64,000 bases of DNA from a virus. The notes beneath the pieces are model-generated. The model ran no database searches and was not told the origin of the DNA. It worked only from the letters and a program-made list of their open reading frames with translations. Positions 6,530 to 55,317 of this stretch are shown one piece after another. The stretch lies in IMG/VR virus record IMGVR_UViG_3300037313_000833, one strand, 5' to 3'. Numbering within the stretch: position 1 is the first letter of the stretch; every line of letters begins with the position of its first letter. The translations under genes and the position numbers were made by a program.

Positions 6530-8749
6530 ATGAGCGTCGTAAAAACACTTAATAAAAACGCAACCGTTAAACAGCAGACCTCGGCTGATTTACCTAGTAA
6601 TCCGGTCAAGTATATTACTCAGCGCGGAAGCCAGACCTCGACTGACGGTCAGACGGTCATCAATCTAGGGTTTGCGGTTGACCTTAGTATCAAAGACGCT
6701 TTCCTTCTGATCGTGGACGGTAAGGTTCTTCTTGAAGGATCTGGAAACGACTACACTTTTACCTCCGTTCAATCGAACAATACTTCGGCTCAAGTCACGC
6801 TAACGCAATCCTTGACCGTCGGACTCAACATTTGTTACATCCTTCTCGGCGCCCTTGTTCAGACCGAACCATCGGTGAATACTCTTGCCGCAACCGTTGC
6901 AAGCCTTTCTAGTGGGAGCGGAACCGGCGGGATCAACTACATAACGGCTTACGATGCCGAAAAAACCGTTGCAGGCTGGAACAGATTTCAAGACGCGGCC
7001 GCGGCAACGCCTACCGACGGCACCGGGACTCTGACCGCGAATAACATCACGCTCACTCAGAACACTACTACTCCTCTTCGCGGAACGGCCGATTTTAAGA
7101 TCACAAAGGATGCTGTCAACCGTCAAGGTGAAGGAGTCTCTTACGACTTCACGATTGACCGTGCGGATCAAGCGAAACCTCTCACGATCACATTCGATTA
7201 TTCGGGCTCCGGTGTCACGTGGGCGACCTCGACAACCTCCATCGGTGATATACAAGTTTGGATTTACGATAAGGATGCAGCTCAACTTATTCAGCCAGCA
7301 GCGTATACGCTAGATGGATCAAAAAAGTTCAAAGGTGTTTTTCAAACCTCCGCATCAAGTTTGAACTATCGCCTGATTTTATTCGTCGGCGGAACGACAG
7401 CGACTTCCTGGACTTTCAATTTCGACAATGTAAAAGTAGGTCCAGATTATGCCTTGCTAGGCTGTCCAGTAACGGACTGGAAAAACGATCTCGCTTGGAC
7501 TTTTGGATCTGGTTACGCTGTTTCAAGTTATGGAATCTGGTATCGTCGCGTAGGGGATTCCTTACACGTTCGCGGATGGTTTCAATCCGGTACAGTATCA
7601 GCAGGAAGTCTTGGGTACATTCAGCTTCCTGCTGGCTATACACTTGACACATCTAAGTTTCCAAGCGGATCAAACGTACATAGAGTCGGCTTAGCAAGCC
7701 AACTGACCGCGGCGACAAACGCACTAGGTAGCTCGTCTCTTTATCAAGTCATATTCTATGACGGCTCTACAAATAATCAATTGTTCTTTGGATGGCAGGC
7801 GTCTAGCGCCCAGTACCAAAAAACCAACGCAAACAGTCTGATCAATTCCAATGAAAATTGTGCGTTTGAATTCAGCGTTCCTATAACAGGCTGGGGCTCG
7901 ACGACTCAGATGTCAAACGACACGGATACCCGTCTCGTTTCTTTTTACGCGCAAAACAATTCTAACCAGTCTCTTGCAACCGGCGTAAACCTTCAGTTTC
8001 CAAACAACATACAAGACTCGCATGGCGCTTGGAATGGAACGGATACCTATACTGTTCCAGTTCCAGGTGACTACTATGTGACAGGCTCCTTCAACATCAG
8101 CACACCTTCCGCTGGCGACGTTTACGTTTATAAAAATGGTGTCATGTTCATGCACCTAACAAGCTGGGTTTCAAACTCAAACTGTTACAACGGCGGAGCA
8201 TTATTGAGAGGTCTTAAGGCTGGCGATACTTTGAAGCTTCAGCATTCAGTATCGAGCGCAACATTTGTCGCAAACTCCGGATTGTATTTCTGGCTTTCGA
8301 TTTTCAGGTTGTCCGGACCTTCAGCGATCGCCGCGACTGAAGCCGTTAATGCAAAATACTATTGCACTGGGGTAGGCACTGCGAATGCTACTACTCCGAT
8401 CAATTTTGACGCTAAAGTTTACGACTCTCATGGGTTCGTTACCACTGGATCGGGCTGGAAAGCGACTGCGCCTGTCGCTGGAAAATACTCGATCAAGGTA
8501 CTGGTAAACCCTAACGTTGCCCCCGGCGGATCTGTCTATATGGACATTTATGTTAACGGGGTGCTGTATGAACATTTTGGATATGTCCCTGCGTCTTCGG
8601 GAAATCCGCTAAATTGCTCAACAACTATACCGCTTCTGGCTGGAGATACCGTTCAGATTAGAACAGGAAACTCATCACTCACCTACTTTGGAACCGCTTC
8701 GCTAGCGTCATTCCCGACAAAGATTGAGATTGAAAAGGTGGGTAACTGA
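6530..8749 (+). CDS. second tail fibre / receptor-binding protein (739 aa) with a CBM-like module and two C1q/TNF-like domains
   Basis: GINYITAYDAEK...NRQGEGVSYDFTIDR...WTFNFDNVKVGP is paralogous to fibre 1. The C-terminus carries TYTVPVPGDYYV...LKAGDTLKL and WKATAPVAGKYSI...LLAGDTVQI. Confidence 0.9.
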   Translation: MSVVKTLNKNATVKQQTSADLPSNPVKYITQRGSQTSTDGQTVINLGFAVDLSIKDAFLLIVDGKVLLEGSGNDYTFTSVQSNNTSAQVTLTQSLTVGLNICYILLGALVQTEPSVNTLAATVASLSSGSGTGGINYITAYDAEKTVAGWNRFQDAAAATPTDGTGTLTANNITLTQNTTTPLRGTADFKITKDAVNRQGEGVSYDFTIDRADQAKPLTITFDYSGSGVTWATSTTSIGDIQVWIYDKDAAQLIQPAAYTLDGSKKFKGVFQTSASSLNYRLILFVGGTTATSWTFNFDNVKVGPDYALLGCPVTDWKNDLAWTFGSGYAVSSYGIWYRRVGDSLHVRGWFQSGTVSAGSLGYIQLPAGYTLDTSKFPSGSNVHRVGLASQLTAATNALGSSSLYQVIFYDGSTNNQLFFGWQASSAQYQKTNANSLINSNENCAFEFSVPITGWGSTTQMSNDTDTRLVSFYAQNNSNQSLATGVNLQFPNNIQDSHGAWNGTDTYTVPVPGDYYVTGSFNISTPSAGDVYVYKNGVMFMHLTSWVSNSNCYNGGALLRGLKAGDTLKLQHSVSSATFVANSGLYFWLSIFRLSGPSAIAATEAVNAKYYCTGVGTANATTPINFDAKVYDSHGFVTTGSGWKATAPVAGKYSIKVLVNPNVAPGGSVYMDIYVNGVLYEHFGYVPASSGNPLNCSTTIPLLAGDTVQIRTGNSSLTYFGTASLASFPTKIEIEKVGN
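8333..8358 (+). repeat. 26-bp stretch identical to 5524-5549
   Basis: Same 26-mer, at the equivalent inter-domain position of fibre 2. Confidence 0.9.
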
Positions 8750-9213: not shown

Positions 9214-12200
9214 ATGTCTTGCGGATCAGGCGGTAAGAAAAGATATTTTTACACCGGGAATCAGGTCGGCGATCTAAATCAGGTCGGCGACTACAATTTC
9301 GTTGCCGGTGGACCTGCTGGCTCAGGACTCTCAGCTGGAACCGTACAGGGTGTTTTCTTTGCGAACACCATGACTCGCCGTCCATGGGAGCGTCAGGACG
9401 CCGTGTTCGATGACTCCCTTCTCGATGCAACCTATCCAGTCATCAACCTTCAATGGTTTGCAGAAATCGAACTCACTCCTGAAGTTGTTTTTCGCGTATC
9501 CGATCGCTCATTCTATGTCCAGGACAAGGATGGGAACAATCGTTATTACGATGCGCGCGTTCAATCCGGTCCTTCCATTCAAGTGACGACAGGTGAATGG
9601 CTTGCGAATAACTTTCAAGTCTCAAACTTCAACCTCGAGCTGAACAATCGCGATGGCTTCTTTAACCAGTACCTTCCAGGCGGAGCAAACTTCCGTCAAT
9701 GGTCGGGTGCAAAAGTCACAATCAAAATCGGATTCTCTGAGAAATACGATAACTATCTCTCAATTTTCTCAGGACAGATCACGTCAAAAGGCGGTCTATC
9801 CACGACCCGCGACACGATCAGCATTCAGGTTTACGATCGTCTTGATCCAGATGAGTCGACGTTCCCAGCGAATACCTATTCGTCTGACCAGTATCCTGAC
9901 ATCGACAGTGATTCTTCCGGAAAGTCCGTCCCTCTCGTTTATGGCGACTGGTCTGAAAACGTTCCAGCTTGGGGCTCCATTCCTGCAACGTGCGTGAACT
10001 CAGGCGAGGAAGACCCTACCGAGTACGTCTTCAAGGTTTCAGATCTCGAGCTTGAATCCATTGATTCCGTATGGCTCCATCGTGGCAACAATGCTGCTGA
10101 TAAGCCTGACGGTCCTATTCCAATCGATACGAACTGTTACGTCACAGATCTTGCACAAGGCCTATTTAAAATCCCGACAGGTACTCCAGTCTTTCAACAA
10201 CCTTTCATCCTTGTTGACCGCGGTAAGGCGGGTCCAGGCTCAGGTGTTGGGTTCATTACGTCTGACGGCTCGATCAACTTCCTCGAGCAAGGTGTCCGCG
10301 TAGGCGACCGCACCCAGCCATCCACTGAGCGCACGGCTTTCGTAACCTATGAGAACATCAAGTTCCAAGCCCAGAAGACCGGCCCGGTGCCTCGGAATGG
10401 AAGCCTTGGAAATGGAATCCGAGTTCAATACGTTCTCCTCACGCCGTACACCGACCCGAAGCTTCCGCTCGATCTCGTTGTGACCGTTTCGGGAACTGAC
10501 ATTACGGTCGGTATCCCCTCACGTGATCCAGGCACGGGACTTGTATACGGCGCCCACACTGCAAACGACATCAAAGCCGCGATCGCTGCAAACCCAGACG
10601 CCGCGGCTCTCGTTCAATGCGTGATCGTTGGAACCGTTCCTTCCGGATACCCAGCGGGAACGACAGTGGGTCAAGTTGTTCAAACCGTTCCATCCGGATG
10701 GCAAACCTTGTCCGGAGGCGTGGATGATGACGGCAACGGTATCATCACATCCGTCACAAACTTCCAGCTCACGGTTACGGGCTCAACGACCTATAACGAA
10801 GGCGACGAGTACACGATTGAGACCATTCAATATGCGTTCGTGAAAAATGACAAGTTCTCCGTCGTCTGTAAAGGAAAGCCGCTGAAGCTTCTCTCCCTCA
10901 CCCGTCTCTCAGACGTGTCAGCGGAGTTCACGGCTCCAAGAGCTGTCGCCCTGATCCGCGGGGAAGACACCTACTTCGTGTCTGACGACGCCTCAAGAAA
11001 AATTTATCAGCTCGGCTTTGATGGAGAGCTTGTCTCTTCGATCACTTACGACACGATCGATCCAGCGCTGGAACAGATCTCAGGCATGTCCTTTGGACTT
11101 GATGAGCGTCTTTGGATTACGGACCCAATCCAGTCAAAAATCTATCTCATCAACCCGGTCTCCGGTGAGGTGGGATATAGCCTCATGACTGGAACGATCA
11201 CCGGGATCAGCTCAAACCTCCCTTACCTGACTGGTATCTCCGTTCAACCGGACAATAAAATCTGGATCGCTGATAAAGATTCAACGACGATTTATCTCGT
11301 TGACGTGTTCGGCGGGATCAATCCAAACGTCGTGACGACCTTTGATTCGTCGGCGTTTGATCCTAACGCATCAGAAGTCACGGACCTCTCTTGGGATGAC
11401 ACCCGCACTGAGCTTGTGGTCGTTGACCGTGGCGCCCAGCAGATCTATAGGCTGACCGCTTCTGGCGATTACATCAGCGCTTTCTCGTACCTCGACATCG
11501 CGGATGACATCACGTACCCAGCCTCAATCGCCGCGGCTCAAGATGGAACGATTTTCCTCCTCGATGGTGATTCGGGAACGATTTACAACTGGAATGAAGC
11601 AAGTGACGCGAACACGAATCCATGCTGGATTGCGCGCGATATGCTTCAAAAGTTCAATGGTCTTAACTATTCGGACTTCGATCTGTCCTGGAACGCGACC
11701 GCGGTTCAGATGTACGGATATAAAACCCGCTGTTACATCAGCTCCTCGACAGCGCTTGTGACCTACATCAATAAGCTCCTGTCGCAATTCAACGTCGTAT
11801 TCTATGAACGCTTTCTGAAGTTCTCCCTCTTCTGGATTGAGTTCCAAAACTTCCGCACGACTGGAAAGAGAATCACGGAAGCTGACATCCAGATGGACAT
11901 GTTCAAGCCATCGAAGGAAACGAACCAATATTTCAACTCGATGACCGCAACCTTCGGTAAAGATGAGTTCACGGGTAAGTCCCAGACCTCGGACACGTAC
12001 ATCTCCCCATCAGGCGTTTCGTTCGCAGGTGAAGAGATCAACCGTAAGTTCGACATGCCAAACGTCTATCGTCGCGATGAGCTTGATAAACTCGTCCCAC
12101 TCCTGATCCGTCTATCGGTTCCTGAGCCTGAGTTTATTGACGTGACGTTCGGATTCCGCGTGATCCGCTCTCAGATCCACGACTTCATCAACATCGATTT

Positions 12201-12900
12201 CGATCAGGACTTCAATTATCGCACCCTTCGTTTTGAAGGCGGGAAGCGCTTTAAGAACGTTCCATCCATGGTTCGTCAGATCCGTTACAACCTGTCCACG
12301 ATGACGGTCCAGATGAAGCTGTGGTCGCTTGGAACAACTCCATTCGGTGCCTATGACCCAGTCGGAAACCACGTCGGCGGAGAAAATGACCCTGTCGTTT
12401 TGACCAGCGTTGGACGCCTTGGACGTTTCAGTCCTACCGGAATCATCACCGGGGTCGGCTCCAATTATGTCGACATCCAGGATCAGGACGCGATGAACGC
12501 TGAAAACCTTGAGACGGATGCCGCGGGCCTTGCCTACCAGCCCGGATTCAAGCTTGCCGTGATCGATCCGGTGACTCAGGCTCAGATCCAGCTCCTCACG
12601 ATCGACAGCGTCTCAGGCTCTCGGATCACGTTCGAAGAGACCTTGGACCCAGCTGTCGTCGCAACGGTCATCGGCGGATCAGGCTTCCCTGAAGGCGGGA
12701 CTTACCTCGAGTACGCAAAATATACGGACGCTGTCCAAGCTCAGCGCAACGTGTTCGGTTTCATTACCCGTCCGACAACCTCGTACCCAATCTCCAAAAC
12801 GCAGGAGCTTGAAGAGCAACGCGGCGGACTCCACTCGTTTGACGACGGCGGAAAACCTTACGTGTTCTATCCAGAAGGGTTCACCTACGTCGGGGAGTGA
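9214..12900 (+). CDS. large tail/baseplate-type protein (1228 aa) with one fibre-type repeat and an NHL-like beta-propeller
   Basis: Long ORF inside the tail module. It has five repeats of the type xKIYLINPVSGEV / TTIYLVDVFGG / QQIYRLTASGDY, plus LVVTVSGTDITVGI...ANDIKAAIAANPDAAALV resembling the fibre 1 repeats. Confidence 0.85.
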   Translation: MSCGSGGKKRYFYTGNQVGDLNQVGDYNFVAGGPAGSGLSAGTVQGVFFANTMTRRPWERQDAVFDDSLLDATYPVINLQWFAEIELTPEVVFRVSDRSFYVQDKDGNNRYYDARVQSGPSIQVTTGEWLANNFQVSNFNLELNNRDGFFNQYLPGGANFRQWSGAKVTIKIGFSEKYDNYLSIFSGQITSKGGLSTTRDTISIQVYDRLDPDESTFPANTYSSDQYPDIDSDSSGKSVPLVYGDWSENVPAWGSIPATCVNSGEEDPTEYVFKVSDLELESIDSVWLHRGNNAADKPDGPIPIDTNCYVTDLAQGLFKIPTGTPVFQQPFILVDRGKAGPGSGVGFITSDGSINFLEQGVRVGDRTQPSTERTAFVTYENIKFQAQKTGPVPRNGSLGNGIRVQYVLLTPYTDPKLPLDLVVTVSGTDITVGIPSRDPGTGLVYGAHTANDIKAAIAANPDAAALVQCVIVGTVPSGYPAGTTVGQVVQTVPSGWQTLSGGVDDDGNGIITSVTNFQLTVTGSTTYNEGDEYTIETIQYAFVKNDKFSVVCKGKPLKLLSLTRLSDVSAEFTAPRAVALIRGEDTYFVSDDASRKIYQLGFDGELVSSITYDTIDPALEQISGMSFGLDERLWITDPIQSKIYLINPVSGEVGYSLMTGTITGISSNLPYLTGISVQPDNKIWIADKDSTTIYLVDVFGGINPNVVTTFDSSAFDPNASEVTDLSWDDTRTELVVVDRGAQQIYRLTASGDYISAFSYLDIADDITYPASIAAAQDGTIFLLDGDSGTIYNWNEASDANTNPCWIARDMLQKFNGLNYSDFDLSWNATAVQMYGYKTRCYISSSTALVTYINKLLSQFNVVFYERFLKFSLFWIEFQNFRTTGKRITEADIQMDMFKPSKETNQYFNSMTATFGKDEFTGKSQTSDTYISPSGVSFAGEEINRKFDMPNVYRRDELDKLVPLLIRLSVPEPEFIDVTFGFRVIRSQIHDFINIDFDQDFNYRTLRFEGGKRFKNVPSMVRQIRYNLSTMTVQMKLWSLGTTPFGAYDPVGNHVGGENDPVVLTSVGRLGRFSPTGIITGVGSNYVDIQDQDAMNAENLETDAAGLAYQPGFKLAVIDPVTQAQIQLLTIDSVSGSRITFEETLDPAVVATVIGGSGFPEGGTYLEYAKYTDAVQAQRNVFGFITRPTTSYPISKTQELEEQRGGLHSFDDGGKPYVFYPEGFTYVGE

Positions 12901-48295: not shown

Positions 48296-48600
48296 ACAAC
48301 CCAAGACATAGAATCCTTACGCATTCTGATCTGAGCTGTGCTCCCGTGGATGAGATGGGGGAGTGTATTGAAGAAATGCATGTGACTGCAAGAAAGCTTA
48401 TTGCAATCCATGATCAGATCAGTAAGGTAATAAAGAGAGCGAGGCCCTATGCAATTCACAGCCACATGCAACCGCTGCAAAAAGCAAGTCGCGATGCCAG
48501 TGTCGTCCATGAGCAAGGACGTGTTCAGGGATTGGGACGAAGCGAAGGCGGAGCACATCAAGAACTGCACAGCGAAAATCCTGACCATTGGGGAGCTTAG
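48292..48600 (+). CDS. hypothetical protein (3' half doubtful)
   Basis: ATGA-coupled start. After about codon 52 the sequence is low-quality (H/Q/G/R rich) and overlaps the next ORF by 152 nt. Confidence 0.35.
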   Translation: MNNPRHRILTHSDLSCAPVDEMGECIEEMHVTARKLIAIHDQISKVIKRARPYAIHSHMQPLQKASRDASVVHEQGRVQGLGRSEGGAHQELHSENPDHWGA

Positions 48601-48760
48601 GAAAGCGCTCGAGGGTTTGCCTGATGGTGGAGAGGTACTCATCCCCACGAAGGGCGTCCTATGGAACGCGACTGGCTTTGAAGTGAGCTTCTTCACATCG
48701 AAGGAGAATAAGCACATCAAGCTTCTCTCTGATCTCCAGGATGAGGACGTGAAGTCATGA
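48449..48760 (+). CDS. hypothetical protein
   Basis: GAGCGAGG before the ATG. Protein-like composition. Its stop is ATGA-coupled to the next gene. Confidence 0.6.
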   Translation: MQFTATCNRCKKQVAMPVSSMSKDVFRDWDEAKAEHIKNCTAKILTIGELRKALEGLPDGGEVLIPTKGVLWNATGFEVSFFTSKENKHIKLLSDLQDEDVKS

Positions 48761-49023
48761 ACGGGATGAGACGCGGTCGGTTAGGCATGTCATCTGCGAT
48801 CATGGCGATGATCCTTGCTGGTCAGGTTGACATGCTGGGTCTGCTAGGTGATACTGGACTGGGAAGGTCAGCAACCGACGAAGAGATCAGGTTCCTGAAA
48901 ACCCTGAGCGGTACGCCTTACCGGATCTGGGCTAGGCGTGTTGCAAGAGGGCTTACCCCAAGCGAGACGGAGTACATCCGTGAAAGGCTGAAGGAGCATG
49001 TCGAGACAACTCGGGACGCTTAA
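48757..49023 (+). CDS. hypothetical protein
   Basis: ATGA coupling. Confidence 0.6.
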   Translation: MNGMRRGRLGMSSAIMAMILAGQVDMLGLLGDTGLGRSATDEEIRFLKTLSGTPYRIWARRVARGLTPSETEYIRERLKEHVETTRDA

Positions 49024-49429
49024 ATGGTTCAATAAAACCCGCGGGTATGGATTCATCATTCCCGATGAGGGCGAGAAGCGCGACATCTTTGTGAGCTTCA
49101 AGTGGATTGAGGGCTGGCGCAAGCTCTTGTTTGAAGGCGAGCGTCTGGAGTTTGAGATCGAAGAGGGTCCGACTGGACCGCTCGCAAAACATGTAACCAA
49201 AGTCAAGGAGATCAATATGGGACGAACAATGAAGCAGAACTGGACAAAGACAGCGGATAACACCTGGAGCTGTACAGCTCACCGGGGATACACGGCTCAA
49301 GTCGTTTACTCAGCCGGTGTCGGTTACACGCTCACCATTACGGGAACTGGAGCGCCAGCCGCGGTTGCGTATACCACGCTGAAGCTCGCGAAAGCAGCGT
49401 TCTCGAAGTTCTTGAGGACGAAGTCATGA
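48998..49429 (+). CDS. cold-shock-domain protein fused to a C-terminal extension
   Basis: GTLKWFNKTRGYGFIIPDEGEKRDIFVSF (CspA RNP motifs), followed by about 70 unrelated residues in the same frame. Confidence 0.75.
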   Translation: MSRQLGTLKWFNKTRGYGFIIPDEGEKRDIFVSFKWIEGWRKLLFEGERLEFEIEEGPTGPLAKHVTKVKEINMGRTMKQNWTKTADNTWSCTAHRGYTAQVVYSAGVGYTLTITGTGAPAAVAYTTLKLAKAAFSKFLRTKS

Positions 49430-49656
49430 TGGTCGCTGGACCTAAGTTTTATCATTGTGAGGTCGGATACGAGGTTCGTCTCAAGGGAGGAAAGGACGTA
49501 TGGATCATTACAAGCTACGACGCTTGCGGATCAGACGGACACCGATATGTCACGATCACTCATAAAGTGAGTGAGGTCTCTGTAGCATTAAATAGTAAGA
49601 AGCTTGGACCTGCACGCAAACCAAGGGTGAAGTCATGCCATACGATCCAGAACTAG
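49426..49656 (+). CDS. hypothetical protein
   Basis: ATGATG coupling. Confidence 0.6.
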   Translation: MMVAGPKFYHCEVGYEVRLKGGKDVWIITSYDACGSDGHRYVTITHKVSEVSVALNSKKLGPARKPRVKSCHTIQN

Positions 49657-49811
49657 ATAGGTACTTGGAGAGGCGGGAAAGGTTTCGTGCGAGAGTGAAG
49701 CATGAACTGGTTCAGTTCTTGGGCTGTCTCATTGCGTCCGCCGCGGTAGGGCTTGCCGTGTTCACAGTCCTGACTGTATTGTTCTACGCGGCAAAGGGTA
49801 TCGCGAAATAA
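49635..49811 (+). CDS. 58-aa single-pass membrane protein (below the track cutoff)
   Basis: MPYDPELDRYLERRERF...LGCLIASAAVGLAVFTVLTVLFYAAKGIAK. Ends just before the hairpin at 49816. Confidence 0.5.
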   Translation: MPYDPELDRYLERRERFRARVKHELVQFLGCLIASAAVGLAVFTVLTVLFYAAKGIAK

Positions 49812-49815
49812 GAAA

Positions 49816-49843
49816 AGCCGGGAATCATCCTGATAACCCGGCT
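49816..49843. terminator. hairpin between convergent genes (better T-run for the minus-strand gene)
   Basis: AGCCGGG / CCCGGCT with a 14-nt loop. The minus-strand reading is followed by TTTTCTTATTT. Confidence 0.5.
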
Positions 49844-49857
49844 CTCTTAAACCCAGA

Positions 49858-50094
49858 TTAAGCTTTTGGAGTCGTGTCGGTAGTTGTTACCGCTGGCGTC
49901 TCCACAGCTTGAGGCTGGGGTTTAAATTGCTCCACGAAGGTCATGATCAGGGTGCGGACAAGGCCGTACCACGTATTCGCCTTGATGCTGTCGGTTTCCG
50001 ACATGACCGTTTGAGCGATCAAAAGAAGAAGGAGAATAGCGTTCATCACGCTGAAGTTATGAACTACGTTCGTAAGAGCTGTTTGAATATCCAT
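49858..50094 (-). CDS. small membrane protein
   Basis: Hydrophobic NAILLLLLIAQTVM. A minus-strand motif copy lies upstream at 50154-68. Confidence 0.6.
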   Translation of the reverse strand: MDIQTALTNVVHNFSVMNAILLLLLIAQTVMSETDSIKANTWYGLVRTLIMTFVEQFKPQPQAVETPAVTTTDTTPKA

Positions 50095-50153
50095 TGTTTG
50101 ATTCCTTTCATGAAAGCGCGCCGATCATTGACGCGTGAATCTATAGTAAATGC

Positions 50154-50168
50154 GTTTAGCGTTACCGC
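50154..50168 (-). promoter_or_regulatory. GCGGTAACGCTAAAC element on the minus strand
   Basis: The reverse complement reads ATAGTTATTGCGGTAACGCTAAACG; compare 54517-46. It lies upstream of minus gene 50094. Confidence 0.45.
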
Positions 50169-50234
50169 AATAACTATTTGAAGTCGCTCGCTTAAAAAAT
50201 GTCAGAAGTGACACAATTGCGGAAATCTCCCGGT

Positions 50235-50250
50235 GCGGTAAGCTCTAATC
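50235..50250 (+). promoter_or_regulatory. GCGGTAAGCTCTAATC element
   Basis: Preceded by TCTCCCGGT, as at 18267; ATG 50251 follows directly. Confidence 0.4.
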
Positions 50251-50388
50251 ATGAGCAAGTTTGAATATAAGACGGTTGATACGAGTACGCTGAAAGGCCT
50301 GAAGGAAGCTGAGAAGCTTCACATGAGCGGATGGAAAATGATCCGTGTGGGTTTGTTCAGTATCCTGTTCGAGCGCAAGAAAAAGTAA
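50251..50388 (+). CDS. possible 45-aa protein
   Basis: MSKFEYKTVDTSTLKGLKEAEKLHMSGWKMIRVGLFSILFERKKK. No SD is visible. Confidence 0.4.
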   Translation: MSKFEYKTVDTSTLKGLKEAEKLHMSGWKMIRVGLFSILFERKKK

Positions 50389-50417
50389 TTGACTGACGGT
50401 AACAACTACCGCAAACT
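50389..50417 (+). promoter_or_regulatory. TTGACT-N17-CAAACT promoter-like site
   Basis: The leader CAAACTGACAAAGAAGGAG parallels the nrdJ leader. Confidence 0.45.
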
Positions 50418-50433
50418 GACAAAGAAGGAGAGA

Positions 50434-50709
50434 ATGATGAAGGACGTAAAAGAGATTCAGCTGGGATCGGAAGTGATGGACCTAGTGACAGGCTTCAAGG
50501 GGATCGCGATGGGACGCACACTCTTCTTGAACGGTTGCGCGCGCATCGGTGTTCAACCCCCAATGGATAAGGACGGCAAGATCCCAGATGCTCAATGGTT
50601 CGACGAACCACAGCTCAAGGTCTTGAAAGAGGGAAAGGTGAAAGTGGGATCGCGTGATACAGGCGGCCCATGTCCTTCCACTCCACAACGTCGAAAGGAC
50701 TACAAGTAA
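50434..50709 (+). CDS. hypothetical protein
   Basis: AAGGAGAGA before ATGATG. Confidence 0.65.
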   Translation: MMKDVKEIQLGSEVMDLVTGFKGIAMGRTLFLNGCARIGVQPPMDKDGKIPDAQWFDEPQLKVLKEGKVKVGSRDTGGPCPSTPQRRKDYK

Positions 50710-51079
50710 ACCAAGTTCCGACAGGCACCCGCTGAAAGTCTCGGATAAAAGTTATCGGTCTGAGAGTCTGTCGGTTAAGTTCCAATACCCTGACCCAAAG
50801 GATGCAAAGTAAGAGTCGAAATGGGGTAACGCCCGGACTCCCAAACGGTCGCGAGTAGGTGCATGGTGCGGAAGTCGAAAACCTGGACACTAAAGCAGGT
50901 GGGTAGTAGTCGCCCTGTACGCGCCTTTCCGGTTGGGCGCAAGAGATTGCAAACTGGACCCGGCGGGGGATAACCCGTAAAGGAGAGGGCTTAGCGGCCC
51001 CGGTGAAAAGGCGAAAGGCTCGATGCATAGGGCCCTAGCAACGGTTCCGAATGGAGCCTCCCACTCCGCCGGTTCATAT
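50710..51079 (+). ncRNA. candidate structured RNA upstream of the tRNA (unclassified)
   Basis: 370 nt, GC-rich, with no credible ORF. Helices at 50718-24/50768-74 and 50921-25/50936-40. Direct repeats AAGTTCC x2 and AGTCGAAA x2. Confidence 0.25.
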
Positions 51080-51155
51080 GTTGAGGTAGCTCAGCGAAGA
51101 GCGCCGGGATTCCAGCCCGGAGGTCGTGTGGTTCAAGTCCACACCCTCAACTCCA
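51080..51155 (+). tRNA. tRNA-Gly (anticodon UCC), slightly non-canonical
   Basis: Acceptor GTTGAGG/CCTCAAC. U8-A9. D arm GCTC-AGCGAA-GAGC. Anticodon arm CCGGG-AUUCCAG-CCCGG with U33 and A37. T arm GTGTGG-TTCAAGT-CCACAC. Discriminator U plus an encoded CCA. Confidence 0.75.
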
Positions 51156-51272
51156 ATTTCGAACCGGCTCTCAGGAGTACCGGGCGGTCCGAGAAGGCCG
51201 GGTTGTCGCAAGACGCCCCTCGGGAAGCGAACTGGGCGCGAACGTGGCGTTTGGGACTCCTCGGTTTTATAG

Positions 51273-51302
51273 TTGACAACAATTGTCGGTAAGCCTTAAC
51301 GT
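51273..51302 (+). promoter_or_regulatory. ATAGTTGACA-N18-TAACGT promoter with TCGGTAAGCC in the spacer
   Basis: Read directly from the sequence; GGGAGGA and ATG 51321 follow. Confidence 0.55.
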
Positions 51303-51320
51303 CAGATCAGGGAGGAACGC

Positions 51321-51716
51321 ATGTTCAAGAACAAGTGTGAGAAGAAAGAAAACCACAAGCCTAAAGCGGAGAAGCCAGTTGTATCACCTCACGGCGTCGG
51401 TGAGATCGAAGCAGCTCTTCAGATCATTAACGACGCGTTGAAGACTGGACAGCTCCCACACAACGTACACGGCCGCGACGCAATGCTTTGTATCATCCCA
51501 TGCCCGGTGCCAACGAGTCCATTCGATGATCGTTACATCGGGTACATCCACAGCTTTGTCACCGTCATCGAGCCTAAGAACATCCGCTCATGGGAAGACA
51601 TCCAAGCTGAGCAACGTAAGCAGAAGGAAGACATGCTGCTCGCTGCAAAGAAGTCGCTTGCTGAAGCAGCGGACCGGGTTGAAACGCTTTCAAGAGAACT
51701 CGGGATCAGCTCATGA
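51321..51716 (+). CDS. hypothetical protein
   Basis: GGGAGGA before the ATG. Confidence 0.65.
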   Translation: MFKNKCEKKENHKPKAEKPVVSPHGVGEIEAALQIINDALKTGQLPHNVHGRDAMLCIIPCPVPTSPFDDRYIGYIHSFVTVIEPKNIRSWEDIQAEQRKQKEDMLLAAKKSLAEAADRVETLSRELGISS

Positions 51717-52045
51717 GCGAGCGTCCTAAGTTCGTCAAGATCAAAGCTAAGCTAGGCGATGGATCGCCTAGATCTGCGATGCGATTGACGGGTAATACCA
51801 AGTATTACAGAGACGCAGGGAACTGGGAGATCGGCTCAAAGTTTATTAACGGGAAGCTTGTATCTATCGGTCCTCTTGATCATTGGGAGGTTCGTCAGGA
51901 TAAGAACGGACACTGGAAACAGTTTGTCAGAGAGAAGCCTGTCCACATGGAACATCTCCATGAGTGTGAGCTGGTTCCTTGCACATACGAAGAATGGCTC
52001 GAGGATAACGGAGAGTACGCACCGAAAGGAGTTCAACGTGAATAA
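51713..52045 (+). CDS. hypothetical protein
   Basis: ATGA coupling. Confidence 0.6.
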   Translation: MSERPKFVKIKAKLGDGSPRSAMRLTGNTKYYRDAGNWEIGSKFINGKLVSIGPLDHWEVRQDKNGHWKQFVREKPVHMEHLHECELVPCTYEEWLEDNGEYAPKGVQRE

Positions 52046-52337
52046 CGTGGTATCGCTTAAAGACTGGAAAGAGAAGAGAACCGAACAGATTGATCTGTAC
52101 CGTTATGAGATCGAGCTGATGGGTATGGACAAGCTCGAGCTTCTTGAGGAGATGGTACGCTTTCAAGAGCTTAGAGGAAAGCAGCGTGACGTTTGTGGTG
52201 AGCACATTCCACCTGAGACCATTGAGCGGGGCCTGATTTTATTCAAACAGCTTAAGAAAAACGCCGAGACGCCTGAGCTTGAAACGCTTTGCGCGTCTTA
52301 CTTGAAGTCCCTCGAAGCGAAGAAAGGTTCCGCATGA
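52038..52337 (+). CDS. hypothetical protein
   Basis: AAAGGAG before GTG 52038. Confidence 0.55.
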   Translation: MNNVVSLKDWKEKRTEQIDLYRYEIELMGMDKLELLEEMVRFQELRGKQRDVCGEHIPPETIERGLILFKQLKKNAETPELETLCASYLKSLEAKKGSA

Positions 52338-52582
52338 CAATGAACGAACTGAAAAAGATGTGCGCTGAGACGCGCGCCCAAGGTGGATCAAGCCTTTACC
52401 TGAAGGTTAACCAGACTAGGGCCCCAAGAAACCCACGTGTACGAGTCGCTGGCTTTGGTAATGGAACCATCGTCAACTGGAACCAGCTTCCGGACGGCTC
52501 TTACGATCTCACGTGCATGTTCAAGCTCTCAACGGTTGAGAAGAACATCGCAAAGCATGAGATGGGAGTTAAGTTTAAATGA
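52334..52582 (+). CDS. hypothetical protein
   Basis: ATGA coupling at MTMNELKK. Confidence 0.6.
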   Translation: MTMNELKKMCAETRAQGGSSLYLKVNQTRAPRNPRVRVAGFGNGTIVNWNQLPDGSYDLTCMFKLSTVEKNIAKHEMGVKFK

Positions 52583-52767
52583 ACGATTGGAAAGAAGCAC
52601 GGATCGCACAGCTTGAGCGTCAGCGGTTTCTCTTACAAACCAAGCTCAAGGAAATCGACACTGAAGTCAGTAAGATAAGGGAGCTTCAAGTATTGGAGCG
52701 TCCAAACATCCTCATCAAGAAAAGGGACGACGATGACTCGATACGAGATCGCGCAACATCTCGCTAA
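52579..52767 (+). CDS. hypothetical small protein
   Basis: ATGA coupling. Confidence 0.5.
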   Translation: MNDWKEARIAQLERQRFLLQTKLKEIDTEVSKIRELQVLERPNILIKKRDDDDSIRDRATSR

Positions 52768-53119
52768 CATGAAATACAAGCCGGGCGTCACGTTCGGCGT
52801 GCGGCAAGGCTATGGGCTCGATGTTCTCGAGATCTGGATTCAAGCGTATGTGGATGATGCGCTTTATGTTCCAAGTCCAGCGAACCCGAATTACCCAAAG
52901 ATTCCGCTAAGGCTCGCCGAATGCGTACCGCCTTATGTGGTAACGCTTGCCGCTCTCAAAGAGTTCATGAGATACTTGTTTCGTAAGCTCGAGAACCATG
53001 AGGTTGACGAATGGTTCAAGTACGATGGGGAGTGTGTGACTGATCCACACCCCGAATTTAAATATGGAGATCTTGGAGATGACTCTAGCACTACTGCAAC
53101 AACTAATCGATCTCGGTAA
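52733..53119 (+). CDS. hypothetical protein
   Basis: ORF with protein-like composition. Confidence 0.6.
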   Translation: MTRYEIAQHLANMKYKPGVTFGVRQGYGLDVLEIWIQAYVDDALYVPSPANPNYPKIPLRLAECVPPYVVTLAALKEFMRYLFRKLENHEVDEWFKYDGECVTDPHPEFKYGDLGDDSSTTATTNRSR

Positions 53120-53297
53120 ACGGGACGGCGCTGGCTTCCACATGGAACCAGATAACTCCGGCTTGGGAGATATGCGTCTCTCCATTGGAGACTGGGCGTG
53201 GATCACTCGAGCCCCACTCACTGATGAGCAGCTCATAGACGCGCTGATCTCAGCAAGCGTTCACATCGAACTGAAGAAAAGGACGAAGTACGAATGA
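53064..53297 (+). CDS. hypothetical small protein
   Basis: The stop is ATGA-coupled to the next gene; the start is uncertain. Confidence 0.45.
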   Translation: MEILEMTLALLQQLIDLGKRDGAGFHMEPDNSGLGDMRLSIGDWAWITRAPLTDEQLIDALISASVHIELKKRTKYE

Positions 53298-54061
53298 CAC
53301 TGAAGTCAAGAATCGGGAATGGATACCTAGATAAGAACAGCCTTGTGTGTCCCAAACGGGATACAGGCTCAAACAATGGCGTGATGTATAGCGGGGAGTT
53401 CTTGTGGCTTCTCGTTAAGAATCAAGAGATGCGTCCTGAGATCGTAAGTCAATGGGCTGTGATCTTAGATCGCTGCTTTAAAGAGCCGGGGCTTCTCATG
53501 CGCTCACCGGATAATGCAGGTGGACAGGAAGGTCCGGATGATTATCTGGGCGTTTGTCTCGCTGCAAAGGCCATGAACGAAGGGATCAAAGGCAAGCCCT
53601 ACAGCGTTGCGATTGGAAACCACATCCTCCGCTATGGGCTCAAACACTTCGGCTTCTTCCGAAACGACCCCGGCGCATCGACATTCGGTCCGTTCCTATG
53701 GCGCCAGCCCCAGCTCATCGCCGCGGCTTTCAGTGTGGCTGTAGGTCCATGGTATAGCAGATTGCTATATTTCATCCTAAGCCGTCCGTTCATGTGGTAC
53801 ACAGCCGCGGTTATCTTTTTCGCGTGCCGCGGGAAGTTCGATGGCACGGACCCATGGCGTCTCACCTGGATCTTGATCCAGCTCACCGAGGATAAATCGT
53901 GGCTGTGTAAGTGGGCCGTGAAGGGCTGGTACTACCGCCTTGCGTGCCGCTTTGGATACCCCGGCATGTGTCTAGTCGCTCGAGACTACTATGAGCCTGA
54001 TCATCCCTTCGCGACTTATCATGAGCGTGCAGACCGCACCTACCTTGGAGATAGATCATGA
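53294..54061 (+). CDS. hypothetical protein with C-terminal hydrophobic helices
   Basis: LIAAAFSVAVGPWYSRLLYFIL and FMWYTAAVIFFAC. Confidence 0.65.
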   Translation: MTLKSRIGNGYLDKNSLVCPKRDTGSNNGVMYSGEFLWLLVKNQEMRPEIVSQWAVILDRCFKEPGLLMRSPDNAGGQEGPDDYLGVCLAAKAMNEGIKGKPYSVAIGNHILRYGLKHFGFFRNDPGASTFGPFLWRQPQLIAAAFSVAVGPWYSRLLYFILSRPFMWYTAAVIFFACRGKFDGTDPWRLTWILIQLTEDKSWLCKWAVKGWYYRLACRFGYPGMCLVARDYYEPDHPFATYHERADRTYLGDRS

Positions 54062-54288
54062 AAGACTTTATTGTTGAACTTCATTTCGCAGGGAACCTCA
54101 TCTTGACCCGTCTTACATCAGCGGAAACCGAAGCCATGGCGATCAGTAACGTCATGGAGACGAGACTGTTTTACGGCTTCAATGGCTTTTACTATCCACG
54201 GCATTCAATCGTGAAAGCGAGGGCGTATGAGGAGAAAAGCGAAGACGAATCAGGAAAAAAGGGCCGAGACCTCGCTTCAGCGTGCTGA
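54058..54288 (+). CDS. hypothetical small protein
   Basis: ATGA coupling. Confidence 0.55.
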   Translation: MKDFIVELHFAGNLILTRLTSAETEAMAISNVMETRLFYGFNGFYYPRHSIVKARAYEEKSEDESGKKGRDLASAC

Positions 54289-54520
54289 GCGGATCGCGCC
54301 GAACTTCGAGTTCGTCATCTCCTGTCGCAAGTTCTACACTGAGCGCGGCTTCCTAAGCGACAAACAAGTCAAGGCCCTGGATTCCATTCAGGAACGTGGA
54401 TACCGCATGGGCGTGGATCTCAGTCGGATCTTTGGGGATGGAAGCTGTCCGAATGGCCTCTTTGACTTTGAGGACGATTGGGACTTTGACGGTTTCGATC
54501 CCACGGATCTTTACGATTGA
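54227..54520 (+). CDS. hypothetical small acidic protein
   Basis: Its TGA stop lies inside the TTGACA hexamer of the next promoter. Confidence 0.5.
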   Translation: MRRKAKTNQEKRAETSLQRAERIAPNFEFVISCRKFYTERGFLSDKQVKALDSIQERGYRMGVDLSRIFGDGSCPNGLFDFEDDWDFDGFDPTDLYD

Positions 54521-54546
54521 CAGCGTGACGCGGTAACGCTTAACAT
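54517..54546 (+). promoter_or_regulatory. TTGACA-N18-TAACAT promoter with GCGGTAACGC in the spacer
   Basis: Read directly from the sequence; AAAGGAGA and ATG 54571 follow. Confidence 0.6.
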
Positions 54547-54570
54547 CAAACCAGACAAAGGAGATCAGGT

Positions 54571-55317
54571 ATGTACATTCCCCCAGAAAAAGAAATCGAG
54601 AAGAAGCTTGAAGCAGTTTACACGGAAATCTTTTCAAACCTTGGACGGTTCAAAGGCTCATTCATCGCAGGGGGATCGATCACATCCCTCGTTCTCGGAG
54701 AAGAGCCAAACGATTATGACATCTGGTTTGAGACCGTGGCTGACTGGGAGAACGCTTGTCACCTTGCACGTCGCGCTGTGGGCGATTTCAACGAAGGGCC
54801 TGTCACCATCATTTGTGAAACGGAACACGCGCTCACGTTCAAGCTCTTAGGCATGACCCCGGTGCTCCAGTTCGTAAAATCCCGCACCGGAGCATATGAC
54901 GAAGTCATTGAGCAGTTTGATTTCCTGCACGCTCAGGCCGCGTACCTCCCGTCTGATGAAGACGGGCTCGAGGGTGAGCTTTTGTTCGGGAACCGGAACT
55001 GCATCGACTTCATCAAAGAAAAAGTCCTCGTATTCGAAGGGAAGCTCGATTACCCAATCCATACGCTTTCGCGTCTCCAGAAGTTTGCAAAGCGTGGCTG
55101 GATCGTCCCCGACCAGACCCTTGCATGTCTGATTCGTGAGATCCGCAGGGCTGATCAAGATCTCATCGATCGGGATCAGAACGCTTGCGGTATGAAGTAC
55201 GGCGGGGAGGATTATCTGGGAGCAAAGAAAGCCGCGCTTGAAGCGGAGCATAAAATCATACACGATCCTGAGACCCAGCAATGCACGTGCGCCATCTGCG
55301 AAGGGATCTTTACTTGA
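54571..55317 (+). CDS. Pol-beta-superfamily nucleotidyltransferase-like protein
   Basis: GGSITSLVLGEEPNDYDIW fits the G[GS]-x(9-13)-DxD signature; C-terminal CTCAIC. Confidence 0.5.
   Translation: MYIPPEKEIEKKLEAVYTEIFSNLGRFKGSFIAGGSITSLVLGEEPNDYDIWFETVADWENACHLARRAVGDFNEGPVTIICETEHALTFKLLGMTPVLQFVKSRTGAYDEVIEQFDFLHAQAAYLPSDEDGLEGELLFGNRNCIDFIKEKVLVFEGKLDYPIHTLSRLQKFAKRGWIVPDQTLACLIREIRRADQDLIDRDQNACGMKYGGEDYLGAKKAALEAEHKIIHDPETQQCTCAICEGIFT

What the first reader, a model, noticed from the sequence alone, without database searches (positions are those of the whole stretch)
50710..51320. tRNA-Gly(UCC) embedded in 610 nt of GC-rich non-coding sequence
**Upstream and downstream flanks**
- The tRNA (51080-51155) is preceded by 370 nt and followed by 165 nt with no credible ORF. 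This is a genome whose genes normally overlap.
- The upstream part has helices CCGACAG/CTGTCGG (50718/50768) and GCGCC/GGCGC (50921/50936), several GNRA-like loops, and short direct repeats (AAGTTCC x2, AGTCGAAA x2).
- The downstream part can form a long-range AGGAGT/ACTCCT helix (51173/51256) before a T-run.
- Large phage-borne ncRNAs are often found next to tRNAs.

**The tRNA is atypical**
- It has a 6-nt D-loop without the GG pair.
- It has a 6-bp T stem.
- The CCA is encoded.

GGA glycine codons are visibly frequent in the fibre genes, for example the repeated GCT GGA and TCT GGA codons at 880-1450. That would rationalise a phage tRNA-Gly(UCC).
Basis: partly seen in the sequence, partly recalled or inferred. 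Interest (0 to 1): 0.68.

Follow-up and report, generated by a model that had tools for sequence, protein, structure and literature searches.

The report
Phage tRNA inside a modular non-coding RNA
An uncultured phage carries an unusual glycine tRNA inside about 560 bases of non-coding sequence, part of which is conserved as folded RNA, and near-identical sister phages carry an unrelated 215-base RNA segment where the tRNA sits.

Summary
ARAGORN and the Rfam tRNA model (53 bits) both call tRNA-Gly(UCC) at 51080-51155. The D-loop has 6 nt and no GG, the T stem has 6 bp, and CCA is encoded. The 611-nt gap (50710-51320) has no conserved ORF and is 56-62% GC, against 51% for the window.

No Rfam family matches the flanks. 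No homologue was found outside one phage lineage of about five contigs with two sequence versions.

Comparing the two versions gave three results:
- A 113-nt four-way-junction module (50960-51072) differs at 17 positions, and none breaks a pair. There are five double compensatory pairs, one paired deletion and one GU/GC change.
- The tRNA is an exchangeable cassette. Sister phages have an unrelated 215-nt segment there and no tRNA.
- The 3' module (51158-51272) is identical in both. It is a long hairpin followed by UUUU, and a phage-specific promoter motif follows at 51273-51300.

Best reading: a modular structured non-coding RNA with a tRNA in a variable linker. This resembles GOLLD in layout, but it is not a GOLLD or ROOL member. 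Whole-region folding energies and long-range 5'-3' pairings are not better than chance. Function, transcription and processing are all inferred.

The parts
50718..50774 (+). Hairpin 1. Lower stem of 9 bp (CCGACAGGC/GUCUGUCGG), a 12-nt asymmetric internal loop and an 8-bp upper stem. It starts 8 nt after the stop codon of the upstream gene.
   Evidence: MFE -21.8 kcal/mol, z = -3.14, 2 of 200 shuffles fold as well. It is identical in the sister phages, so there is no covariation information.
50775..50880 (+). Purine-rich 5' segment. It contains a small GGG-GUAACG-CCC hairpin and one copy of AGTCGAAA. No significant local fold.
   Evidence: z = +0.82. Identical in the sister phages. No ORF with a plausible start.
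50881..50900 (+). Hairpin Hv1: ACCUG-loop-CAGGU. The sister phages have GCCUG-loop-CAGGC.
   Evidence: The outer pair changes from A-U to G-C while the loops differ (10 vs 12 nt). Read from the alignment and sequences.
50901..50959 (+). Window-specific insert V1, absent from the sister phages. It includes the hairpin GCGCCU/GGGCGC at 50921-50940.
   Evidence: Gap in L012/L013 in the alignment. Fold (z = +0.47, not significant).
50960..51072 (+). Domain B, a 113-nt four-way junction. A 9-bp closing stem (CCGGCGGGG/CUCCGCCGG) encloses three main hairpins (29 pairs in 6 helices in the consensus model) and conserved purine-rich joining strands (CGGUGAAAAGGCGAAA, CUAGCAAC).
   Evidence: RNAalifold consensus. 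Pairing is 100% in both versions, with 5 pairs changed on both sides, 1 paired deletion and 1 GU/GC change; slid controls give 0. Random placement of the same number of changes on the MFE fold of the window's domain B alone breaks no pair only about once in 100,000 trials. z = -1.76 (window) and -2.43 (L012).
51068..51075 (+). 5' arm (GCCGGUUC) of an 8-bp helix that encloses the tRNA. It overlaps the 3' strand of the domain B closing stem.
   Evidence: Perfect inverted repeat I12 with 51161-51168. The MFE of 51066-51170 gives the cloverleaf plus this clamp, z = -4.65. It is window-specific, so it is untested by comparison.
51080..51155 (+). tRNA-Gly(UCC). Acceptor stem 7 bp, D-loop 6 nt without GG, variable loop 5 nt, T stem 6 bp, discriminator U73, CCA encoded, U at position -1.
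   Evidence: ARAGORN. Rfam tRNA 53.1 bits with alignment. No close relative in INPHARED phages, IMG/VR or the JGI metagenome collection.
51161..51168 (+). 3' arm (GAACCGGC) of the tRNA-enclosing helix. It lies at the start of the conserved 3' module.
   Evidence: (I12).
51158..51272 (+). Domain C. A long irregular hairpin (51179-51265) whose base, ACCGGG/CUCGGU, is followed by UUUU (51265-51268). It looks like an intrinsic terminator and marks the end of the non-coding unit.
   Evidence: Identical in window and L012 from TTCGAACC onward; blastn gives 99.2% over 51155-51272, the one mismatch lying before TTCGAACC. Both adjacent segments are unrelated or about 85% identical. Fold (z = -0.64, not significant). 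The simple terminator scan did not call it, because its loop limit is 8 nt.
51273..51300 (+). Phage-specific promoter-like motif TTGACA-N8-CGGTAAGCCTTAAC. It starts the next transcription unit (gene at 51321).
   Evidence: Four exact copies of TTGACA-N17-TTAAC, all on the + strand and just before genes. The 14-mer has 51 matches at <= 3 mismatches against 2.8 expected.

Best explanation
The 611-nt gap is a non-coding RNA unit of about 560 nt (50710-51272). It sits at the end of a short early-gene transcription unit and is built from helix-closed modules.

**Layout**
- A 5' region: hairpin 1 plus a purine-rich segment.
- A variable slot, V1.
- A conserved four-way-junction module, domain B.
- A second variable slot, which holds tRNA-Gly(UCC) in this phage and an unrelated 215-nt RNA segment in the sister phages.
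- An invariant 3' hairpin ending in a U-tract, domain C.

**Proposed mechanism (inferred)**
- The unit is transcribed from upstream and ends at the domain C hairpin and U-tract.
- Host RNase P cuts at 51079/51080. U at position -1 and the encoded CCA suit a bacterial RNase P substrate.
- 3' trimming releases a tRNA that reads GGA, the phage's commonest glycine codon.
- The flanking modules persist as structured RNA. Their role does not depend on the tRNA, because they are kept where the tRNA is absent.

**Shown versus inferred**
- Shown: the region is non-coding; the tRNA is real; domain B structure is conserved; the cassette is exchanged; a promoter-like motif follows the unit.
- Inferred: transcription, processing, tRNA charging, and any function of the flanking modules.

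In layout it works like a GOLLD-type phage RNA with a tRNA in its linker. It is not a sequence or structure member of GOLLD or ROOL.
For: **Non-coding**
- No gene is called in the gap.
- The ORFs in the gap are not conserved, and the two versions differ by 1-nt indels.
- The spurious ORFs have no homologues.

**tRNA**
-.

**Structure under selection**
- All 17 differences in domain B are neutral to the fold. They comprise 5 compensatory pairs, 1 paired deletion, 1 GU/GC change and 4 changes at unpaired positions.
- Randomly placed changes typically break 7-9 pairs of the MFE fold of the window's domain B. P(no break) is about 1e-5.
- Hairpin Hv1 also changes A-U to G-C.
- Hairpin 1, domain B and the clamped tRNA each fold better than shuffles: z = -3.1, -1.8/-2.4 and -4.7.

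**Modularity**
- The boundaries of homology coincide with helix ends. The tRNA cassette is closed by GCCGGUUC/GAACCGGC. The 215-nt substitute in L012 is closed by UUUAAGA/UCUUAAA (read).
- Domain B is about 10% diverged while the 5.2 kb upstream is 99.6% identical and domain C is identical. This implies import from an unsampled, more distant relative.

**Unit boundaries**
- A hairpin plus UUUU is followed by a motif that recurs before other genes.

**Precedent**
- tRNAs occur in the GOLLD linker, and GOLLD and ROOL lie near phage tRNA islands (PMC12286853).

**Codon fit**
- GGA is 31.7% of glycine codons overall and 38-40% in the structural genes.
Against: - Only two distinct versions exist, so covariation rests on a single pairwise comparison. 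The consensus structure was itself chosen with a covariation term. On the MFE fold of the window's domain B alone the count is 3 compensated, 3 one-sided and 3 broken pairs.
- Whole-flank MFE z-scores are about 0.
- Segments 50780-50880, V1 and domain C are not more stable than shuffles.
- The best 5'-3' complementarity is within chance (p about 0.17), so nothing ties the 5' and 3' parts into one fold.
- No Rfam hit.
- No homologue in IMG/VR, JGI metagenomes, GTDB genomes, INPHARED phages or PLSDB plasmids.
- The identity of the 5' part and of domain C could simply reflect recent common ancestry rather than constraint.
- No expression data, and no promoter identified for the unit.
- The tRNA departs from canonical geometry. 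It also lacks the C2:G71 and G3:C70 pairs that bacterial GlyRS uses (my own knowledge), so charging is uncertain.
Confidence: 0.5

Rival explanations
1. This is an ordinary accessory phage tRNA gene in a recombination-prone intergenic spacer. The flanks are mostly non-functional mosaic DNA, plus the terminator of the upstream operon and one or two small stabilising hairpins. There is no larger functional RNA.
For: - Whole-flank folding is no better than shuffles, and several segments have z > 0.
- No family-level conservation anywhere.
- The locus is a mosaic breakpoint: identity drops from 99.6% exactly inside it, with cassettes swapped and a 75-aa ORF inserted in the relatives.
- Distant phages with a homologue of the upstream gene have no gap there.
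Against: - Domain B has 17 of 17 fold-neutral differences.
- The flanks are retained where the tRNA is absent, so they are not just tRNA leader and trailer.
- About 370 nt of GC-rich non-coding DNA is retained in a genome with tightly packed genes.
Confidence: 0.3
2. This is a cis-acting regulatory or processing element between two early transcription units. Alternative pairings among 50831-50847, 51173-51186 and 51248-51264 would decide whether the domain C terminator forms, tuning read-through or the 3'-end stability of the upstream mRNA.
For: - Three mutually complementary segments exist. GGACTCCCAAACG / CGTTTGGGACTCC match at 12 of 13 positions (I1). The alifold model pairs GCCCGGACUCC with GGAGUACCGGGC.
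- The element ends in a hairpin plus U-tract, directly followed by a promoter-like motif.
- A cold-shock-domain (RNA chaperone) gene lies 1.3 kb upstream.
Against: - The complementarity is not above chance for this composition.
- These segments are identical in both versions, so there is no covariation test.
- The next genes have their own promoter motif, and in the relatives a whole extra ORF separates terminator and promoter.
- No riboswitch, T-box or antiterminator family matches.
Confidence: 0.12
3. The region is protein-coding after all (minus-strand 137-aa ORF at 50615-51028, or small + strand ORFs), or it is a mobile-element or attachment-site remnant built around a tRNA.
For: - Gene callers placed a 64-aa minus-strand ORF here in L012/L013.
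- An 8-bp inverted repeat flanks the tRNA cassette.
Against: - The 64-aa and 106-aa translations have no homologue in 5.8 billion clusters or 1.84 billion representatives.
- The frames are not conserved between the two versions.
- All surrounding genes are on the + strand.
- No transposase was seen in the locus, and no integrase among the window proteins scanned against Pfam or PHROGs or in the precomputed Pfam marks of the gene calls; the window was not searched exhaustively.
- The tRNA is full-length, not a 3' fragment.
Confidence: 0.04

Closest known systems
[quoted passage not shown]
   Same: - It is phage-borne.
- It has a less conserved 5' region and a conserved 3' region joined by a variable linker that sometimes contains tRNAs.
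- Its function is unknown (PMC12286853).
- Here too a tRNA sits in a variable slot between conserved modules, and the 3' module is the most conserved.
   Different: - No match to the Rfam model, even at E <= 10.
- About 560 nt here, against more than 800 nt for many GOLLD members.
- The 3' module here is a single 115-nt hairpin, not a large multi-junction domain.
- No evidence of multimer or cage formation.
- The family here is known from one lineage only.
ROOL RNA (rumen-originating, ornate, large; Rfam family)
   Same: It is encoded in phages and prophages, often near tRNA islands. It has no known protein partner or function. Its size is similar: about 580 nt by my recollection, against about 560 nt here.
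   Different: No match to the Rfam model. Whole-region folding energy is not above shuffles, and no pseudoknot or covariation support exists beyond domain B.
Phage T4 RNAC and RNAD (small stable RNAs of the tRNA region)
   Same: They are non-coding RNAs transcribed from a phage tRNA region with no known biological role (PMC3014915). This is the same idea of structured RNAs released next to tRNAs.
   Different: The T4 RNAs are short (about 120-140 nt, from my own knowledge) and lie in an eight-tRNA cluster. Here there is a single tRNA with a 370-nt 5' flank. No sequence relationship was tested or expected.
Canonical bacterial or phage elongator tRNA-Gly(UCC)
   Same: It has a cloverleaf and the anticodon loop AUUCCAG, with U33 and A37. 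Also canonical are U8, A14, the G15-C48 pair, the T-loop UUCAAGU, U73 and CCA.
   Different: - The D-loop has 6 nt and a single G, where the canonical loop has G18G19.
- The T stem has 6 bp, giving a 13-bp acceptor/T stack. This is the same total as tRNA-Sec (my own knowledge), though split 7/6 rather than 8/5.
- Pairs 2:71 and 3:70 are U:A rather than C:G and G:C.

Membership tests
tRNA (Rfam RF00005; elongator tRNA-Gly) | Cloverleaf recognised by tRNA predictors above threshold | tested here: met
   ARAGORN tRNA-Gly(tcc) at 51080-51155. Rfam tRNA 53.1 bits against a gathering score of 29. The whole-window gathering-mode run failed to list it, probably a filter effect.
tRNA (Rfam RF00005; elongator tRNA-Gly) | Canonical tertiary-interaction nucleotides: a D-loop with G18G19, and a 5-bp T stem | tested here: not met
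   The D-loop is AGCGAA (6 nt, one G). The T stem is GUGUGG/CCACAC, 6 bp (alignment).
tRNA (Rfam RF00005; elongator tRNA-Gly) | Bacterial GlyRS identity set (U73, C35, C36, G1:C72, C2:G71, G3:C70; from established knowledge) | tested here: inconclusive
   U73, C35, C36 and G1:C72 are present. Pairs 2:71 and 3:70 are U:A (sequence). The host and its GlyRS type are unknown.
tRNA (Rfam RF00005; elongator tRNA-Gly) | Expressed, processed and aminoacylated | not testable with these tools
   No transcript or biochemical data are available.
GOLLD RNA | Match to the family covariance model (conserved 3' domain) | tested here: not met
   cmscan of 50300-51700 and of L012 4900-6100 at E <= 10 lists no GOLLD hit.
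GOLLD RNA | Phage-borne, with a variable linker that can hold tRNAs between a variable 5' and a conserved 3' region | tested here: met
   The tRNA is replaced by an unrelated 215-nt segment in sister phages, and the 3' module is invariant. The family description comes from PMC12286853. This is a resemblance of layout only.
GOLLD RNA | Homo-oligomeric nanocage | not testable with these tools
   This needs cryo-EM or sizing of the transcript.
ROOL RNA | Match to the family covariance model | tested here: not met
   No ROOL hit at E <= 10.
Rho-independent terminator | G+C-rich hairpin immediately followed by a U-tract | tested here: inconclusive
   The stem base ACCGGG/CUCGGU is followed by UUUU at 51265-51268. 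The stem-loop is 87 nt and irregular, the consensus scan did not call it, and its stability is not above shuffles.
Riboswitch, T-box, RNase P RNA, tmRNA, group I/II intron or small ribozymes | Match to any curated covariance model | tested here: not met
   No such family appears at E <= 10. ARAGORN finds no tmRNA. The upstream protein is full-length in its homologues, so there is no split gene.

The most novel reading that the evidence does not exclude
This is the first sampled member of a new class of large modular phage RNA. It would carry interchangeable cargo (a tRNA in one strain, a 215-nt structured domain in another) in a helix-closed linker between conserved scaffold modules. It would be functionally analogous to GOLLD, for example as a self-assembling scaffold or cage, or as a decoy that presents or protects RNA cargo early in infection, in a genome region that also encodes a Gad2-like protein (Gad2 is a known anti-Gabija factor, my own knowledge). 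The 10% divergence of domain B inside otherwise near-identical genomes implies further, unsampled relatives.
Probability: 0.2. Interest if true: 0.75.

Novelty: new variant of a known kind. Interest (0 to 1): 0.45.

Why it matters
Phage-encoded large structured RNAs next to tRNAs (GOLLD, ROOL, T4 RNAC and RNAD) have no known function. Here nature provides matched strains. They are 99.6% identical over the 5.2 kb upstream of the element, and one carries a tRNA in the RNA's variable slot while the other carries a different RNA domain. If the flanks are a functional RNA, this pair offers a compact natural with/without-tRNA comparison for asking why such RNAs travel with tRNAs. It would also add a class that current covariance-model libraries miss. 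If the flanks are not functional, the finding is an unusual but accessory phage tRNA at a mosaic breakpoint.

Tried and rejected
**Known RNA classes considered and dropped**
- RNase P RNA. I noticed GAAAGUC and GGUAACGCC, which resemble conserved RNase P strings. A shared 9-mer between two sequences of about 370 nt is expected about 0.5 times by chance (my estimate), and no RNase P model hits. Dropped.
- SRP-like GGAAG/AAGCAG strings, hammerhead-like CUGA..GAAA strings, and a T-box acting on tRNA-Gly. No model hits and the spacing is wrong. Dropped.
- Group I intron. The upstream protein is complete in its homologues, so there is no split gene. Dropped.

**Structural ideas that failed a test**
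- Long-range 5'-3' helices and an antiterminator reading. A local complementarity score against dinucleotide shuffles gives p about 0.17. Kept only as a low-confidence rival.
- A rearranged shared module between the window's V1 and the L012 insert. Only 6-7-mers are shared, E > 1. Dropped.
- RNAduplex on the whole domains gave a meaningless giant-loop duplex.

**Homologue searches, all negative outside the lineage**
- blastn against INPHARED phages and PLSDB plasmids.
- Exact or degenerate motifs against IMG/VR, JGI metagenomes and GTDB genomes. The hits were chance matches, with no tRNA and no nhmmer similarity.
- Back-translated probe scans using the stop-free reverse-frame translation.
- Searches for spurious ORFs called over the RNA.
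- Synteny through homologues of the upstream gene. They have no gap and no tRNA.
- A covariance model of domain B found no paralogue in the window, in 10 kb beyond it, or in any fetched locus.

Full report
**What is there**

The window is a phage genome. It encodes a large terminase, family A DNA polymerase, a DnaB-like helicase, ribonucleotide reductase, RecA-like and SbcC-like proteins. Its DNA polymerase is at most 30% identical to that of any cultured phage.

The 6.4 kb around the finding (window 48321-54716) is base-for-base identical to part of an 83.8-kb Logan contig from SRR35147159.

Between the stop codon of a 106-aa gene (50709) and the start of a 131-aa gene (51321) lie 611 nt. The contig's own gene calls leave them empty.

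**Checking the observation**

ARAGORN finds one tRNA in the window: tRNA-Gly(UCC) at 51080-51155. The Rfam tRNA model gives 53.1 bits. The alignment confirms a 6-nt D-loop (AGCGAA) without GG, a 6-bp T stem and an encoded CCA after U73. The remaining tertiary-interaction positions are canonical: U8, A14, G15-C48, U33, A37 and the T-loop UUCAAGU.

The whole-window gathering-mode run listed nothing, not even this tRNA. Negatives from that mode are therefore weak. The targeted E <= 10 run is the relevant one, and apart from the tRNA it lists only chance-level hits.

The flanks are 56-62% GC against 51% for the window. GGA is the commonest glycine codon: 31.7% overall and 38-40% in the structural genes at 1-15 kb.

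**Is it coding?**

No. The longest ORFs in the gap are 137 aa on the minus strand and 89 aa across the tRNA. Neither is kept in the relatives. The two available versions differ by single-base indels. The reverse-frame translation has no relative among 1.84 billion representative proteins. The 64-aa ORF that gene callers placed over the region in the relatives matches only itself.

**Relatives**

The downstream protein has one relative at 75% identity. It lies on two contigs, L012 (Logan SRR35148586) and L013 (JGI 3300037420). The two are identical to each other across the element. About five contigs in the whole collection belong to this lineage, and they carry two versions of the element.

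The relatives are 99.6% identical to the window for the 5.2 kb that ends at 50885. After that the alignment becomes mosaic:
- The window has about 59 extra nt (50901-50959).
- 50966-51070 is about 90% identical (89.5% over 50966-51070; 90.6% over 50966-51061).
- The tRNA and a few flanking bases are replaced by an unrelated 215-nt segment. ARAGORN and Rfam find no tRNA there.
- 51158-51272 is identical in both.
- A 75-aa ORF is inserted after the U-tract in the relatives.
- The downstream genes are 77-97% identical.

No second tRNA occurs in the window or in 10 kb beyond it. None occurs in about 26 kb of the relative. The tRNA is therefore an accessory, exchangeable cassette.

**Evidence for RNA structure**

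The roughly 90%-identical stretch is exactly one helix-closed unit, domain B (50960-51072). RNAalifold folds it as a four-way junction with 29 pairs. Every one of the 17 differences between the two versions is neutral to that fold:
- five pairs are changed on both sides (CG to AU, CG to UA, GC to AU, CG to UA, CG to UA);
- one pair is deleted on both sides;
- one pair changes between GU and GC;
- four changes fall at unpaired positions.

Sliding the partners by 1-3 columns gives no compensatory pairs and 30-61% pairing.

If 17 changes are placed at random on the MFE fold predicted from the window's domain B alone, they typically break 7-9 pairs. They break none about once in 100,000 trials. 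On that window-only fold the real data give 3 compensated, 3 one-sided and 3 broken pairs. The consensus fold is therefore partly chosen by the covariation it displays. With two sequences, this is the main caveat.

Other local evidence:
- The adjacent hairpin Hv1 also changes its outer pair from A-U to G-C.
- Submodule stabilities are mixed: hairpin 1 z = -3.1, domain B z = -1.8 (window) and -2.4 (L012), and the tRNA with an 8-bp enclosing helix z = -4.7. By contrast 50780-50880 gives +0.8, V1 gives +0.5 and domain C gives -0.6.
- The whole flanks give +0.25 and +0.17.
- The best complementarity between the 5' flank and domain C is within chance (p about 0.17).

I therefore claim conserved structure for domain B, plausible structure for hairpin 1 and Hv1, and no demonstrated global fold.

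**Boundaries of the unit**

Domain C is a long hairpin whose base is followed by UUUU (51265-51268). Five bases later comes TTGACA-N8-CGGTAAGCCTTAAC. TTGACA-N17-TTAAC occurs in four exact copies, each before a + strand gene. The 14-mer occurs 51 times at <= 3 mismatches against 2.8 expected. So the element ends a transcription unit and a new one begins at about 51300.

No consensus promoter was found for the element itself. A weak copy of the motif lies at 50236, before the two small genes upstream.

**Homologue search**

Every available route was exhausted and all were negative outside the lineage:
- blastn against cultured phages and plasmids;
- exact and degenerate motifs, and back-translated probes, against IMG/VR, JGI metagenomes and GTDB genomes (with the chance hits excluded);
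- spurious-ORF protein searches;
- synteny through homologues of the upstream gene, which have no gap there;
- a covariance model of domain B.

One indirect point remains. Domain B is about 10% diverged while its surroundings are 0-0.4% diverged. This implies that it was imported by recombination from a more distant, unsampled carrier of the same RNA.

**Interpretation**

The best-supported reading (confidence 0.5) is a modular non-coding RNA unit in which the tRNA occupies a variable, helix-closed slot between conserved modules.

This layout matches what is reported for GOLLD: a variable 5' region, a linker that sometimes holds tRNAs and a conserved 3' region (PMC12286853). It also echoes T4's RNAC and RNAD from the tRNA region (PMC3014915).

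Membership in GOLLD or ROOL was tested and failed. This is therefore a resemblance of organisation, not of family.

The proposed steps are inference from sequence and from established knowledge of bacterial tRNA processing. They are read-through transcription, RNase P cleavage after U(-1), 3' trimming to the encoded CCA, decoding of GGA, and persistence of the flanking modules.

The main rival (0.3) is an accessory tRNA at a mosaic breakpoint whose flanks are largely non-functional. A termination-control element (0.12) and coding or mobile-element readings (0.04) are less likely.

**Verdict**

If real, the RNA is a new variant of the known kind "phage tRNA-associated structured RNA".

It is of moderate interest because of the natural tRNA / no-tRNA pair. 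The interest is limited by the tiny sample, the unknown host and the absence of expression data.

Noticed in passing
window-wide; e.g. 17542, 25393, 27488, 35330, 51287, 54531, 55328, 55925, 62343 (+ strand): A 14-nt motif, CGGTAAGCCTTAAC (variants GGTAAGSSTTACC, partly palindromic), occurs 51 times at <= 3 mismatches against 2.8 expected. Most copies are on the + strand and just upstream of gene starts. Four copies have TTGACA at a fixed distance upstream. It is probably a phage-specific promoter or operator. It does not fit a sigma-70 -10 box.
   Followed up: partly
window 54571-55317 (+): The 248-aa product hits Pfam PF26128 (Gad2) in the precomputed annotation; Gad2 is known as an anti-Gabija protein (my own knowledge). 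It lies in a run of small early genes that each have their own promoter-like motif. The tRNA/ncRNA unit therefore sits in a likely host-takeover or anti-defence region. A cold-shock-domain protein (48998-49429) lies 1.3 kb upstream.
   Followed up: no
L012 5722-5949 (= L013 5298-5525), between the U-tract and the promoter motif: The sister phages carry an extra 75-aa ORF exactly between the domain C terminator-like hairpin and the TTGACA...CGGTAAGCCTTAAC motif. The window has none there. It is another cassette-type difference at the same locus.
   Followed up: no
window 51080-51155, tool behaviour: The whole-window Rfam run at gathering thresholds returned no matches. The same tRNA scores 53 bits, against a gathering score of 29, in the targeted run. 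The default filters seem to lose this atypical tRNA, so gathering-mode negatives on this window should not be over-read.
   Followed up: partly
window 1-64000 versus Logan contig SRR35147159_5970 (83,825 nt): Mapping L011 (window 48321-54716 = record 39163-32768, reversed) puts window position 1 at record coordinate about 87,483. That is beyond the contig end. The window therefore comes from a differently permuted assembly (an 83,922-nt contig also exists). This suggests a circularly permuted or terminally redundant genome of about 83.5-84 kb.
   Followed up: no
window 421-5946, 6530-8749, 9214-12900 (+): These are very large putative fibre or tail proteins (1841, 739 and 1228 aa). The 739-aa one has a BclA C-terminal domain.
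   Followed up: partly
L012 5382-5597: The 215-nt segment that replaces the tRNA in the sister phages is GC-rich and closed by a 7-bp helix (UUUAAGA/UCUUAAA). It has no Rfam or blastn match. Its fold is not more stable than shuffles (z = -1.2 and -0.5). What it is remains unexplained.
   Followed up: partly
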